DNA from: Escherichia phage T4
Sequence record: NC_000866.4
Direction: 5' to 3' (one strand)
Length of the DNA stretch: 64,000 bases
Shown: one piece after another, positions 38,826 to 40,530 of the stretch
Layout of the letters: every line of letters begins with the position of its first letter
How positions within the stretch are numbered: position 1 is the stretch's first letter
The notes under the pieces: model-generated
What the model was told of the DNA's origin: nothing
Databases searched by the model: none
The model's input: the letters and a program-made list of their open reading frames with translations, nothing else
Position numbers and translations under genes: made by a program

Positions 38826-38857
38826 TACCAAAAAGCCCCAACCTTTCGGTCGGGGCT
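38826..38857 (-). terminator. rho-independent terminator closing the tRNA / small-RNA cluster
   Basis: Minus-strand agccccgaccgaaaggttggggct hairpin followed by TTTTT. Confidence 0.7.
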
Positions 38858-38864
38858 AACCGTT

Positions 38865-39180
38865 GCGGCAACCTTGTCGGGGTTCCACCTGCCAAGGCAA
38901 GTGTTTGTACGAAACGCCGGGATTCGAACCCGGTTATTAAGTAGTTGACGCTACTCAATATTTTTAAAAGGCCATATCTCAACCATATCCGAACGTTCCG
39001 TCAAAAACGCTACTCGGCTTACGGCAAAGATATTTCCTCGAATCGATAATTTGGTGCGCCGTTTCTGCTGTGATGTAAGAGGGCATCAATAAACGCAAAG
39101 ATTATTAACGCAATTCCTTACTCAGGGAACCATCAGTCCGACGACTTACCGGTAGCGACCCGGTTTCTCATTTGGTATCC
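38865..39180 (-). ncRNA. stable small RNAs of the tRNA cluster (T4 species 1 / species 2-like), boundaries approximate
   Basis: No ORF; tRNA-like T-arm ccgggttcgaatcccgg and an encoded ...gcgcacca 3-prime end; lies between tRNA-Arg and the cluster terminator, as T4 rnaC/rnaD. Confidence 0.5.
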
Positions 39181-39182
39181 CG

Positions 39183-39257
39183 CCCTGGGATCGAACCAGG
39201 ACCGCAAACTTAGAAGGATCGTATGCTATCCATTACACCAGCGGGACGTAATTTAAA
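39183..39257 (-). tRNA. tRNA-Arg: tRNA-Arg (anticodon UCU)
   Basis: Minus-strand gtcccgctggtgtaatggatagcatacgatccttctaagtttgcggtcctggttcgatcccagggcgggatacca; cloverleaf, encoded CCA. Confidence 0.85.
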
Positions 39258-39918
39258 ATTTCATTTTTCGACCTTTAAACCATCCTTCTGGAATTGGGTC
39301 AGTTTTCTTAATACGTTTAGAAACTTTTTCATCTAATGAATGAATCCACATCATACCGAATTGGGAATTCTTTTCACCTTTCTGGTGATTATTTTTGGCG
39401 TGAGATTCTTTCATTTTATTAATAGTTTCAGGAGTATGATGCTTATTTAGAAATCTGCTATTATTTAAAAATTTTTCCCTGTATTCAGGAGTTGACCACA
39501 AACGTTTAAATACATTTGAACCAATTTTACGATATTTTTCTTGAAGTAAAATATCATTTTCAAAACGTGACTTAAACGATTTAGCTCCTTTTAAGCTAGC
39601 ATCTTTCTTCTGGTTTAGCATTCCAGGAATATTTACATGATCCCATCCACCTTCACCGCCAAGTTTTAAATTATACACATCTGGTCTATTTAAAAACTCT
39701 TCTGTGACAATATTTTTCTCGGCTTCAAGCATAGATTCTTTATCGTCAAAATACTCTAATATTTCTTTAGAAAAATTTTCTATACCATATTTATCTTGGG
39801 CTCTTTTTAATAATTTACCAGAACCCATATATCCATCATCTAAATTTTCGGTAGAATGCACACCAATATAAATTTTATTATTAATTTTATTTGTTATTTT
39901 ATAAGTGTAATAGAACAT
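39253..39918 (-). CDS. segB: GIY-YIG homing endonuclease SegB
   Basis: 221 aa; YYTYKITNKINNKIYIGVHS...GYMGSG; embedded in the tRNA cluster as in T4. Confidence 0.85.
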   Translation of the reverse strand: MFYYTYKITNKINNKIYIGVHSTENLDDGYMGSGKLLKRAQDKYGIENFSKEILEYFDDKESMLEAEKNIVTEEFLNRPDVYNLKLGGEGGWDHVNIPGMLNQKKDASLKGAKSFKSRFENDILLQEKYRKIGSNVFKRLWSTPEYREKFLNNSRFLNKHHTPETINKMKESHAKNNHQKGEKNSQFGMMWIHSLDEKVSKRIKKTDPIPEGWFKGRKMKF

Positions 39919-39959
39919 AAATATCTCCTATTTCTAAGAGTATTTATGTTCTCAAAATA

Positions 39960-40033
39960 TGACCCAGACCAGATTTGAACTGGTAACCTTTCCCTTATGA
40001 GGGGACTGCTGCTAACCATTGAGCTACAGGGCC
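39960..40033 (-). tRNA. tRNA-Ile: tRNA-Ile (anticodon CAU type)
   Basis: Minus-strand ggccctgtagctcaatggttagcagcagtcccctcataaggg...ggttcaaatc...; anticodon loop ctcataa. Confidence 0.75.
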
Positions 40034-40034
40034 T

Positions 40035-40110
40035 TGGTGCTGATTGACGGAATCGAACCGCCGACATCCTCATTACAAGTGAGGTGCTCTACCTACTGAG
40101 CTAAATCAGC
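40035..40110 (-). tRNA. tRNA-Thr: tRNA-Thr (anticodon UGU)
   Basis: Minus-strand gctgatttagctcagtaggtagagcacctcacttgtaatgagg...ggttcgattcc...aatcagcacca. Confidence 0.85.
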
Positions 40111-40117
40111 AAAATTA

Positions 40118-40204
40118 CGGAGGCGATAGGATTTGAACCTATGAGTCGCCGGAGCGACTGCCGGTTTTCAAGACCGGTGCATTAAACCACTCTGCCACGC
40201 CTCC
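40118..40204 (-). tRNA. tRNA-Ser: tRNA-Ser (anticodon UGA), long variable arm
   Basis: Minus-strand ggaggcgtggcagagtggtttaatgcaccggtcttgaaaaccgg...ggttcaaatcctatcgcctcc. Confidence 0.85.
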
Positions 40205-40206
40205 AG

Positions 40207-40280
40207 TCTCCATACAAGGATTTGAACCTTGGACCTCCTGATCCCAAATCAGGCGCTCTACCAAACTGAGCTACACGGAG
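40207..40280 (-). tRNA. tRNA-Pro: tRNA-Pro (anticodon UGG)
   Basis: Minus-strand ctccgtgtagctcagtttggtagagcgcctgatttgggatcagg...ggttcaaatcc. Confidence 0.85.
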
Positions 40281-40290
40281 TAAATTAAAT

Positions 40291-40364
40291 TGGAGCGGAT
40301 AATGAGAATCGAACTCACATCATCAGATTGGAAGTCTGAGGTAATACCATTATACGATATCCGC
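40291..40364 (-). tRNA. tRNA-Gly: tRNA-Gly (anticodon UCC)
   Basis: Minus-strand gcggatatcgtataatggtattacctcagacttccaatctga...gttcgattctcattatccgctcca. Confidence 0.85.
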
Positions 40365-40369
40365 AAATT

Positions 40370-40456
40370 TGGTGCGAGAAGTGGGACTCGAACCCACAAG
40401 GAAATCATTCCGCAGCATTTTAAGTGCTGTGCCTTTACCAATTTGACCATTCTCGC
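40370..40456 (-). tRNA. tRNA-Leu: tRNA-Leu (anticodon UAA), long variable arm
   Basis: Minus-strand gcgagaatggtcaaattggtaaaggcacagcacttaaaatgctg...gggttcgagtcccacttctcgcacca. Confidence 0.85.
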
Positions 40457-40457
40457 G

Positions 40458-40530
40458 CTGGGAATAAAGGACTCGAACCTTTGCATCTAGCAGTCAAAGT
40501 GCTATGCCTTACCAACTTGGCTAATTCCCA
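40458..40530 (-). tRNA. tRNA-Gln: tRNA-Gln (anticodon UUG)
   Basis: Minus-strand tgggaattagccaagttggtaaggcatagcactttgactgctag...ggttcgagtcctttattccca. Confidence 0.85.

What the first reader, a model, noticed from the sequence alone, without database searches (positions are those of the whole stretch)
38826..40530. Eight-tRNA cluster with small RNAs and an embedded homing endonuclease
Seven tightly packed tRNAs (Gln, Leu, Gly, Pro, Ser, Thr, Ile) are followed by segB, tRNA-Arg, about 300 nt of tRNA-like stable RNA and a strong terminator. Phage tRNA sets are thought to replace host tRNAs cleaved by anticodon nucleases.
Basis: partly seen in the sequence, partly recalled or inferred. Interest (0 to 1): 0.3.

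Follow-up and report, generated by a model that had tools for sequence, protein, structure and literature searches.

The report
Phage T4 tRNA gene cluster

Summary
The window is phage T4 (99.8% identical to T4T). On the minus strand, 40530 to 38826 reads: tRNA-Gln, Leu, Gly, Pro, Ser, Thr, Ile(CAU); segB (a 221-aa GIY-YIG homing endonuclease); tRNA-Arg; stable RNAs rnaD (species 2) and rnaC (species 1); a 50-nt trailer; a strong intrinsic terminator. All eight tRNAs pass ARAGORN and Rfam.

The locus has been annotated since 1985 (X03016), and SegB was characterised in 2008 and 2026, so it is already known.

- All eight tRNAs read A-ending codons that T4 ORFs use 1.4-4.3 times more often than E. 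coli ORFs (p=2.5e-6).
- Six of eight have anticodon loops identical to the host isoacceptor.
- Only Arg matches a known E. coli anticodon-nuclease target.
- T4 lacks tRNA-Tyr, Asn, Lys and His, which relatives carry next to segB. Counter-defence by tRNA-Tyr has been shown experimentally in T6.

Side result: rnaC has a covariation-supported, tRNA-like four-way junction, with an acceptor-like stem and a canonical T arm. It sits inside tRNA arrays in Karamvirus phages. rnaD is structured but not tRNA-like. The function of both is still unknown.

The parts
40600..40627 (-). Putative middle promoter PM2 upstream of tRNA-Gln: a MotA-box-like ATATGCTTTA at 40618-40627 and a -10 TATTAT at 40600-40605
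   Evidence: X03016 annotates 'put. -35/-10 region (PM2)' at the equivalent positions (mapped). The sequence was read. The sigma-70 scan does not cover this promoter type.
40457..40530 (-). tRNA-Gln (UUG); CCA not encoded
   Evidence: ARAGORN; Rfam 66 bits; sequence
40370..40456 (-). tRNA-Leu (UAA), abutting tRNA-Gln with 0 nt between them; CCA encoded
40291..40364 (-). tRNA-Gly (UCC); CCA encoded
40206..40280 (-). tRNA-Pro (UGG); CCA not encoded; abuts tRNA-Ser
40117..40205 (-). tRNA-Ser (UGA), class II with a long variable arm; CCA not encoded
40035..40110 (-). tRNA-Thr (UGU); CCA encoded
39960..40033 (-). tRNA-Ile with anticodon CAU (the AUA reader); ARAGORN labels it Met; CCA not encoded
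   Evidence: Annotated tRNA-Ile in T4T and X03016. Its acceptor strand GGCCCUG resembles E. coli ileY GGCCCUU, not metT GGCUACG. The only E. coli BLAST hits are annotated tRNA-Ile.
39912..39952 (-). RNA hairpin that sequesters the Shine-Dalgarno sequence (AGGAG) and the AUG of segB
   Evidence: Fold -19.4 kcal/mol, z = -6.1. Annotated 'pot. stem-loop' in X03016. Proposed as a translational block in PMC2330249.
39253..39918 (-). segB, a free-standing GIY-YIG homing endonuclease (221 aa; YIG at residues 17-19); 27-31% G+C in 300-nt windows
   Evidence: ORF; Pfam PF01541 28.3 bits against a cut-off of 22.6; annotation; composition; absent from the homologous T2 locus
39173..39247 (-). tRNA-Arg (UCU); CCA encoded
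39052..39171 (-). rnaD (species 2 RNA), a stable RNA of unknown function. It has a 5-bp hairpin with a 7-nt loop, long-range helices and a variable central hairpin. It is not tRNA-like.
   Evidence: Annotation. Consensus structure from 19 homologues: 23 pairs, 5 with compensatory changes. Single-sequence fold not significant, z = -0.76.
38908..39045 (-). rnaC (species 1 RNA), a stable tRNA-like RNA of unknown function. It has an acceptor-like stem (nt 1-7 with 130-136), a long arm, a hairpin with an invariant CGUCAA loop, and a canonical T arm that contains the SegB core motif.
   Evidence: Annotation. Fold z = -4.77. 46 pairs, 12 compensatory, 99.6% of cells paired over 17 homologues. Weak tRNA-Sec-like Rfam match of 17.5 bits, from the acceptor and T arm only. 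SegB motif hit at 38920-38930.
38858..38907 (-). 3' trailer between rnaC and the terminator, with small hairpins. It is conserved in relatives, including those where it follows rnaD directly.
38826..38857 (-). Intrinsic terminator of the operon: stem-loop 38834-38857 followed by a U run
   Evidence: Terminator scan; fold; 'pot. terminator' in X03016

Best explanation
This is the tRNA operon of bacteriophage T4.

Transcription and processing: A transcript of about 1.75 kb starts upstream of tRNA-Gln and ends at the terminator after rnaC. Host enzymes cut it into eight tRNAs and two small stable RNAs. These enzymes are RNase P, 3' trimming nucleases and, for the four tRNAs without an encoded CCA, the CCA-adding enzyme.

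The tRNAs: All eight read A-ending codons (CAA, UUA, GGA, CCA, UCA, ACA, AUA, AGA). The AT-rich phage uses these codons far more than E. coli does. The most likely main role is therefore to top up decoding capacity for phage mRNAs while host tRNAs decline during infection.

segB: This is a selfish GIY-YIG homing endonuclease. It cuts at the T-arm motif of tRNA genes in related phages that lack it, and so drags itself and the flanking tRNA genes into their genomes. Its own translation is held down by a hairpin over its ribosome-binding site.

rnaC and rnaD: They ride on the same transcript. rnaC is matured like a tRNA because it has an acceptor-like stem and a T arm. The function of both RNAs is unknown.

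Shown here: identity, gene content, structures and the codon bias. Taken from the literature: transcription, processing, SegB cleavage and homing. Inferred: that codon supplementation is the main selective benefit.
For: - Identity: 99.8% to T4 genomes over 2 kb, and 5 differences in 5 kb against T4T, with feature-by-feature agreement with the T4T and X03016 annotations.
- tRNAs.
- Codon test: in 50 long ORFs of the window against 38 ORFs of an E. coli K-12 sample, the eight cognate codons are 1.4-4.3 times enriched. They take ranks 1, 2, 3, 6, 7, 8 and 14 of 61. Mann-Whitney p = 2.5e-6, and p = 0.006 within A-ending codons alone.
- Host tRNAs fall and T4 tRNAs rise during infection (PMC9697503).
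- segB: Pfam GIY-YIG. It is absent from the otherwise homologous T2 locus. The SegB core motif GGTTCRANTCC occurs six times in the window against 0.1 expected, every time in this locus. Homing at 99.6% is reported in PMC2330249.
- One long transcript ending after species 1 RNA is described in PMC2330249.
- rnaC: the annotated RNA starts at the first base pair of the covariation-supported acceptor-like helix and ends one to two nt after its last pair.
Against: - Codon supplementation is correlative. The E. coli sample is a single 50-kb region rich in ribosomal-protein genes, and ORFs were called mechanically.
- CAA is only 1.4 times enriched.
- The cluster is described as non-essential for T4 development (PMC2330249), so the benefit must be conditional.
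- Anticodon stems differ from the host in 7 of 8 tRNAs, so resistance to a nuclease that reads the stem is not excluded.
- No function can be given for rnaC or rnaD.
Confidence: 0.85

Rival explanations
1. One reading: the eight T4 tRNAs exist mainly to replace host tRNAs that anticodon nucleases or other tRNA-cleaving defence systems destroy during infection.
For: - The mechanism is proven for other phage tRNAs: T5 tRNA-Lys against PARIS, T5 tRNA-Tyr against retron-Eco7 and T6 tRNA-Tyr against Septu, with segB amplifying the gene.
- T4 tRNA-Arg(UCU) could in principle cover colicin-D-type cleavage of tRNA-Arg (the colicin D target is from my memory).
- Anticodon stems differ from the host isoacceptors in 7 of 8 T4 tRNAs, and PARIS reads the stem.
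- The variable part of the cluster in relatives carries Tyr, Asn, His and Lys, which are known target isotypes, next to segB.
Against: - T4 itself encodes none of Lys, Tyr, Asn, His, Asp or fMet.
- T4 counters PrrC by RNA repair, not by replacement.
- Six of eight anticodon loops are identical to the host, and the whole tRNA-Ser anticodon stem-loop is identical.
- T4 is strongly restricted by the tRNA-Tyr-cleaving Septu, while T2, which carries tRNA-Tyr, is resistant.
- The isotype set tracks codon bias closely.
Confidence: 0.2
2. General replenishment: T4 infection degrades the host tRNA pool as a whole. The phage tRNAs keep the most needed decoders available late in infection, whatever the cause of the loss. 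This overlaps with the best explanation.
For: RNA-seq shows E. coli tRNAs dropping steeply and all eight T4 tRNAs rising through infection (PMC9697503, which cites Yang et al. 2021 for a T4-like vibriophage).
Against: It does not by itself explain why exactly these eight isotypes are kept. The codon-bias ranking does.
Confidence: 0.3
3. Selfish hitch-hiking: which tRNAs T4 carries is set largely by segB-driven co-conversion of flanking DNA rather than by selection on each tRNA.
For: - segB homing replaces the T2L Ser-to-rnaI segment, with 99.6% inheritance.
- Cluster content around segB differs sharply among close relatives: T4 has Thr-Ile-segB-Arg, PST has Thr-Ile-Tyr-segB-Arg, and T2 has ORF-Ile-Tyr-Asn-Arg without segB.
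- The promoter-proximal Gln-Leu-Gly-Pro-Ser block is constant across these phages.
Against: The tRNAs flanking segB (Thr, Ile, Arg) read three of the seven most T4-enriched codons, which argues for selection on them as well.
Confidence: 0.25

Closest known systems
Bacteriophage T4 tRNA region, subclusters I and II (GenBank X03016; T4T HM137666 genes T4Tt001-008, segB, rnaC, rnaD)
   Same: The same locus: identical gene order and boundaries, 99.7-99.8% nucleotide identity.
   Different: Against resequenced T4T there are two substitutions in the trailer (38860, 38862) and one extra C at 39130 inside rnaD. The window shares the extra C with the 1985 X03016 sequence but with none of the 18 other distinct rnaD homologues aligned.
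T2 / T2L, T6 and PST tRNA regions of other Tequatroviruses
   Same: The Gln-Leu-Gly-Pro-Ser block, tRNA-Ile(CAU), tRNA-Arg(UCU), rnaD, rnaC, the trailer and the terminator are shared.
   Different: T2 lacks segB and tRNA-Thr and carries two extra ORFs plus tRNA-Tyr and tRNA-Asn. PST carries tRNA-Tyr between tRNA-Ile and a segB allele with a different leader and N-terminus. T4 has no tRNA-Tyr.
Anti-defence tRNAs of T5 (tRNA-Lys against PARIS, tRNA-Tyr against retron-Eco7) and T6 (tRNA-Tyr against Septu, amplified by SegB)
   Same: Phage tRNA arrays in virulent coliphages. In T6 it is the same segB-containing locus.
   Different: The isotypes shown to work as counter-defence (Lys, Tyr) are absent from T4's cluster. 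No T4 tRNA has been tied to a defence system in the papers read.
tRNA-like domains in other small RNAs (tmRNA, bacterial Y-RNA-like YrlA), as comparators for rnaC; the comparison is from my own knowledge
   Same: An acceptor-like stem closed by the 5' and 3' ends, next to a canonical T arm, with the rest of the tRNA replaced by other helices.
   Different: No Rfam family other than a sub-threshold tRNA-Sec match hits rnaC even at E<=10. ARAGORN finds no tmRNA in the window. The base pair at the position corresponding to tRNA 3:70 is A-U or G-C, not G-U.

Membership tests
Bacteriophage T4 genome (Tequatrovirus T4) | Near-identity of sequence and gene order to T4 records | tested here: met
   99.8% over 2001 bp to eleven T4 records; 5 differences in 5 kb against T4T; annotated features coincide.
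tRNA (Rfam RF00005) | Covariance-model score above the gathering threshold of 29 bits, and a cloverleaf with an anticodon | tested here: met
   Eight hits at 48.8-75.4 bits. ARAGORN gives the same eight with anticodons.
tRNA (Rfam RF00005), applied to rnaC and rnaD | Covariance-model score above the gathering threshold | tested here: not met
   With E<=10 on 38780-39260 only tRNA-Arg passes. rnaC gives 17.5 bits to tRNA-Sec (gathering 47) through its acceptor and T arm alone. rnaD gives nothing. So rnaC is 'tRNA-like', not a tRNA.
tRNA-Ile2 (CAU anticodon, lysidine-modified AUA reader) as opposed to elongator tRNA-Met | Ile2-type acceptor stem with C4-G69 and C5-G68 (the TilS determinants, as I recall them) rather than the U4-A69 and A5-U68 of tRNA-Met | tested here: met
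   T4 acceptor 5' strand GGCCCUG with 3' strand CUGGGUC, against ileY GGCCCUU and metT GGCUACG. The only E. coli hits are annotated tRNA-Ile. T4T and X03016 annotate it as tRNA-Ile. The lysidine modification itself cannot be tested here.
GIY-YIG free-standing homing endonuclease (Seg family) | GIY-YIG catalytic domain | tested here: met
   PF01541 at 28.3 bits against a cut-off of 22.6, residues 3-71. SegE_GIY-YIG is sub-threshold at 22.1 against 25. YIG lies at residues 17-19, the positions mutated in catalytically dead T6 SegB.
GIY-YIG free-standing homing endonuclease (Seg family) | Presence/absence polymorphism at an otherwise homologous locus in close relatives | tested here: met
   T2 has the same flanks (Gln-Ser block, Arg, rnaD, rnaC, terminator) but no segB. 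PST and ZCEC15 have it.
GIY-YIG free-standing homing endonuclease (Seg family) | Site-specific cleavage of the endonuclease-less allele and biased inheritance | not testable with these tools
   Reported experimentally: the preferred site is in T2L tRNA-Asn, with 99.6% inheritance (PMC2330249). Here I could only show that the core motif GGTTCRANTCC occurs six times, all in the locus, and that T2 carries tRNA-Asn.
Rho-independent terminator | G+C-rich stem-loop directly followed by a U run at the end of the transcription unit | tested here: met
   10-bp stem with 7 G-C pairs, loop GAAA, then UUUUUGG; dominant hairpin in the fold.
Counter-defence (nuclease-evading or nuclease-replacing) phage tRNA | The isotype matches a host tRNA known to be cleaved by a defence nuclease | tested here: not met
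   Of the targets named in the papers read (Lys, Tyr, fMet) or recalled (His, Asn, Asp, Arg), only Arg is encoded.
Counter-defence (nuclease-evading or nuclease-replacing) phage tRNA | Anticodon-loop or anticodon-stem substitutions relative to the host isoacceptor that could block recognition | tested here: inconclusive
   Loops are identical in 6 of 8; Gln and Leu differ at position 32 (and 38 for Gln). Stems differ in 7 of 8. General divergence (67-84% identity) would produce this anyway.
Counter-defence (nuclease-evading or nuclease-replacing) phage tRNA | Loss of the tRNA sensitises the phage to a defence system, and supplying it rescues infection | not testable with these tools
   No such experiment for a T4 tRNA was found in the papers read.

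The most novel reading that the evidence does not exclude
rnaC (species 1 RNA), whose role has been unknown for about 50 years, may be a dedicated tRNA mimic. It has a conserved four-way junction with an acceptor-like stem, a canonical T arm and an invariant CGUCAA hairpin loop. It is kept inside tRNA arrays in at least two genera of T4-like phages. It might act as a decoy or sponge for a tRNA-binding host factor, such as a tRNA-targeting defence nuclease or a processing or modification enzyme, rather than being a decaying tRNA gene. rnaD, in which a T4-like phage acquired a convergent adaptive SNP (PMC12685909), could belong to the same host-interaction layer.
Probability: 0.1. Interest if true: 0.55.

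Novelty: already known. Interest (0 to 1): 0.1.

Why it matters
The finding itself adds nothing new. The T4 tRNA operon has been a model for tRNA processing since the 1970s, and segB homing was described in 2008.

It has current relevance because the same locus in T6 was shown in 2026 to be a SegB-driven "genomic accordion" that amplifies tRNA-Tyr to beat the Septu defence. T4's version lacks that tRNA.

The analysis here separates two ideas that are often merged. T4's own eight tRNAs look like codon-usage supplements. The variable tRNAs next to segB in relatives (Tyr, Asn, His, Lys) are the ones that match defence-nuclease targets.

The only open biology in the interval is the function of rnaC and rnaD. 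A covariation-supported structure is now available for both.

Tried and rejected
1. Reading the CAU tRNA as tRNA-Met, as ARAGORN does. Rejected: its acceptor stem is of the ileY type, the curated T4 annotations say Ile, and the only E. coli hits are tRNA-Ile.

2. An alternative tRNA-like fold of the 3' ~94 nt of rnaC, with acceptor nt 45-52 paired to 130-137 and a class-II-like long variable arm. The weak Rfam tRNA-Sec match suggests it. So do ARAGORN's 94-96-nt calls on rnaC homologues in L021, L025 and L027, which carry inconsistent anticodons (Phe, Met, stop). It is disfavoured. The one variable pair of that stem is A·C in 5 of 17 sequences, whereas the competing pairing with the 5' end covaries A-U to G-C with no breaks. 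In addition, helix 14-32/54-71 has three compensatory pairs that are incompatible with it. A conformational switch is not excluded.

3. Looking for a described RNA family for rnaC or rnaD. There was nothing in Rfam 15 even at E<=10.

4. The sigma-70 promoter scan showed no enrichment: 12 found against 14.4 expected. T4 middle and late promoters are outside its scope, so I used the X03016 annotation and direct reading instead.

5. Searching E. coli genomes for a close host counterpart of the T4 CAU tRNA gave only five weak partial hits, E = 0.04.

6. The T4 genome review (PMC150520) is not held. Two paper searches and two look-ups inside held papers failed on term syntax.

7. Three Python calls failed on file handling and were repeated.
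Full report
**1. 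What is there**

ARAGORN finds eight tRNA genes in the whole 64-kb window. All are on the minus strand between 39173 and 40530:
- Gln(UUG) 40457-40530
- Leu(UAA) 40370-40456
- Gly(UCC) 40291-40364
- Pro(UGG) 40206-40280
- Ser(UGA) 40117-40205
- Thr(UGU) 40035-40110
- a CAU-anticodon tRNA 39960-40033
- Arg(UCU) 39173-39247

Rfam's tRNA model recovers the same eight at 48.8-75.4 bits, against a gathering score of 29. The first seven lie 0-10 nt apart.

Between the CAU tRNA and tRNA-Arg lies a 221-aa ORF at 39253-39918. It has a GIY-YIG catalytic domain: PF01541 at 28.3 bits against a cut-off of 22.6.

Downstream of tRNA-Arg there is no credible ORF. A strong intrinsic terminator sits at 38834-38857, with a 10-bp stem, 7 G-C pairs and a U run.

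**2. Identity**

A 2-kb query matches eleven phage T4 records at 99.8%. Against T4T (HM137666), 5 kb around the locus shows five differences.

T4T and the 1985 record X03016 annotate exactly this order: tRNA-Gln, Leu, Gly, Pro, Ser, Thr, Ile, segB (ORF5), tRNA-Arg, species 2 RNA (rnaD), species 1 RNA (rnaC), a potential terminator. Transferred to the window, rnaD is 39052-39171 and rnaC is 38908/9-39045.

X03016 also places a putative middle promoter (PM2) at window 40600-40626. Read directly, there is a MotA-box-like ATATGCTTTA at 40618-40627, followed 12 nt later by TATTAT at 40600-40605. From there to the terminator is about 1.75 kb. PMC2330249 describes a single precursor transcript of this length for the eight tRNAs, segB and both small RNAs.

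**3. The CAU tRNA is tRNA-Ile, not tRNA-Met**

ARAGORN names it Met from the anticodon alone. The evidence for Ile:
- Its acceptor strand GGCCCUG, with C4-G69 and C5-G68, matches E. coli ileY (GGCCCUU) and not metT (GGCUACG).
- The only E. coli BLAST hits, although weak, are annotated tRNA-Ile.
- Both curated T4 annotations say Ile.

That these acceptor pairs are the determinants for lysidine synthesis is from my memory of the tRNA-Ile2 literature, not a tool result.

**4. segB**

Beyond the domain hit, segB behaves as a mobile insertion.
- T2 has the same flanks but no segB. It has extra ORFs and tRNA-Tyr and tRNA-Asn instead.
- PST carries tRNA-Tyr between tRNA-Ile and a segB allele with a different leader.
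- segB windows are 27-31% G+C, against 42-51% for the RNA genes.
- The published SegB core recognition motif GGTTCRANTCC occurs six times in the window against 0.1 expected. All six are in this locus: Gln, Leu, Pro, Ser, Thr and, notably, rnaC.
- PMC2330249 shows cleavage within tRNA genes and 99.6% inheritance of segB in T4 x T2L crosses.
- The ribosome-binding site and AUG of segB are buried in a hairpin at 39912-39952 (-19.4 kcal/mol, z = -6.1). The same paper already proposed this as a translational brake.
- A 2026 paper shows that T6 SegB drives tandem amplification of the adjacent tRNA-Tyr to escape the tRNA-Tyr-cleaving Septu system.

**5. What the eight tRNAs are for**

All eight anticodons read A-ending codons.

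I compared codon use in 50 long ORFs of the window (14,523 codons) with 38 ORFs of a 50-kb E. coli K-12 sample (12,657 codons). The eight cognate codons are 1.4-4.3 times more frequent in T4. They rank 1 (GGA), 2 (AUA), 3 (AGA), 6, 7, 8 and 14 of 61, with CAA lower. Mann-Whitney p = 2.5e-6, and p = 0.006 when only A-ending codons are compared. Ranks 4 and 5 are AAU and UAU, the codons of the extra Asn and Tyr tRNAs that T2-type clusters carry.

RNA-seq from the literature shows host tRNAs falling and all eight T4 tRNAs rising during infection. This is the classical codon-supplementation picture.

**6. The anticodon-nuclease idea**

The hypothesis is real (PMC10264068). It has been demonstrated for T5 tRNA-Lys against PARIS, T5 tRNA-Tyr against retron-Eco7 and T6 tRNA-Tyr against Septu. 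For T4's own set it fits poorly.
- T4 encodes none of Lys, Tyr, Asn, His, Asp or fMet.
- Only Arg overlaps a known target class. That colicin D cuts tRNA-Arg is from memory.
- T4 handles PrrC by repairing tRNA-Lys.
- I fetched the E. coli K-12 isoacceptors. Six of the eight T4 anticodon loops are identical to the host's, and the whole tRNA-Ser anticodon stem-loop is identical. Gln and Leu differ at position 32, and Gln also at 38.
- Stems differ in seven of eight. At 67-84% overall identity this is uninformative.
- Septu EcB88 strongly reduces T4 plating, T2 is resistant and T6 is intermediate. This matches the absence of tRNA-Tyr from T4 and its presence in T2. Linking the two is my inference.

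**7. The small RNAs**

Reviews and recent papers state that their function is unknown. No Rfam family matches them even at E<=10.

I collected homologues from phage genomes and IMG/VR contigs.

rnaC, from 17 distinct sequences at 79-100% identity:
- RNAalifold gives 46 pairs, 12 of them with compensatory changes.
- 99.6% of cells are paired, against about 40-46% when partners are slid by 1-3 columns. No shuffle of 500 reaches the observed covariation.
- The structure is a four-way junction with four elements.
  - An acceptor-like stem, nt 1-7 with 130-136. It has two U·U mismatches, and its third pair switches from A-U to G-C in six sequences.
  - A long arm, nt 8-77.
  - A 10-bp hairpin with an invariant CGUCAA loop.
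  - A canonical T arm, in which one pair switches from G-C to U-A in four sequences.
- The annotated RNA starts at the first pair of the acceptor-like stem and ends one to two nt after its last pair. This fits tRNA-type end maturation.
- A competing acceptor using nt 45-52 is less well supported.

rnaD, from 19 sequences:
- It has a 5-bp hairpin with a 7-nt loop, an invariant long-range helix, a short helix in which U-A switches to A-U in seven sequences, and a variable central hairpin.
- Nothing in it resembles a tRNA arm.
- Its CCA 3' end in T4 is CCG, CCU or CAG in relatives.

The two RNAs are separate modules. Dhakaviruses (JS98, dhabil) have only rnaD, directly after tRNA-Arg. Enterobacter and Cronobacter T4-like phages (PG7, Pet-CM3-4, MY742) have only rnaC. 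In contigs L021 (98.9% to Enterobacter phage Entb_43) and L025 (identical to PG7) it lies between tRNA-Trp and tRNA-Gly with 5-6-nt spacers.

"tRNA-like stable RNA" is thus right for rnaC and not shown for rnaD.

**8. Verdict**

This is a textbook locus, correctly recognised, so it is already known and of low interest as a discovery. The residual open question is what rnaC and rnaD do. I give about 10% to rnaC being a functional tRNA mimic that engages a host tRNA-binding factor.

Noticed in passing
window 13652-13883 (-): A group I intron (Rfam RF00028, 105 bits). By position it is the nrdD (sunY) intron of T4, which houses the I-TevII homing endonuclease gene.
   Followed up: partly
window 39130 (within rnaD); also 38860, 38862 and 38346: The window has an extra C at 39130. 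It shares this with the 1985 X03016 sequence. Resequenced T4T lacks it, as do all 18 other distinct rnaD homologues aligned. It is most likely an old sequencing error carried in the reference, and it falls in a conserved stretch of rnaD. The other three positions are substitutions relative to T4T.
   Followed up: partly
window 38908-39045 (-); L021 7772-7910; L025 8492-8629; L027 981-1117: ARAGORN does not call T4 rnaC. It does call the 3' ~95 nt of rnaC homologues in three relatives as oversized tRNAs with mutually inconsistent anticodons (Phe, Met, stop). Some GenBank records appear to carry such calls as tRNA genes, so tRNA counts for T4-like phages may be inflated by rnaC.
   Followed up: partly
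window 38908-39045 (-), nt 1-7 and nt 45-52 against nt 130-137 of rnaC: Two different segments of rnaC can pair with the same 3' strand: the 5' end, and an internal ACGGAACG. The internal option is 8 bp and nearly invariant. The terminal option covaries. This could be a conformational switch or a trace of descent from a class II tRNA.
   Followed up: partly
window 38920-38930 (-): The T arm of rnaC carries a perfect SegB core recognition motif (GGTTCGAATCC). The homing endonuclease may therefore also cut at rnaC in recipient genomes. The papers read do not mention this site.
   Followed up: no
window 39919-39959 against L003 2220-2361: T4 has only 41 nt between tRNA-Ile and segB. Yersinia phage PST has tRNA-Tyr there, an encoded CCA on tRNA-Ile, and a different segB leader and N-terminus. 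T4's lack of tRNA-Tyr parallels its reported strong sensitivity to the tRNA-Tyr-cleaving Septu EcB88.
   Followed up: partly
rnaD alignment A4, columns 40-43 with 108-111 (window about 39063-39066 and 39128-39132): A short rnaD helix shows U-A switching to A-U in 7 of 19 sequences, and one U·G changed to C-G. A 2025 study (PMC12685909) reports a convergent T-to-C SNP at about position 41 of rnaD in a T4-like phage adapting to a new host. That may lie in this helix.
   Followed up: no
L004 1128-1161, L015 189-222, L016 3011-3043, L019 1105-1137, L020 1116-1149: In several relatives a second copy of the operon terminator hairpin lies about 600 nt further downstream. In L004 an extra ORF (1167-1628) lies between the two copies and T4 has none there, which suggests an insertion that duplicated the terminator.
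   Followed up: no
window 40628-40921, 40918-41328, 41329-41514 (-): The ORFs upstream of the cluster (trna.2, trna.3, trna.4 in T4T) are small proteins of unknown function. Homologues are annotated next to the tRNA genes in PST and JS98 (and trna.2 in dhabil). trna.2 has no Pfam hit.
   Followed up: no
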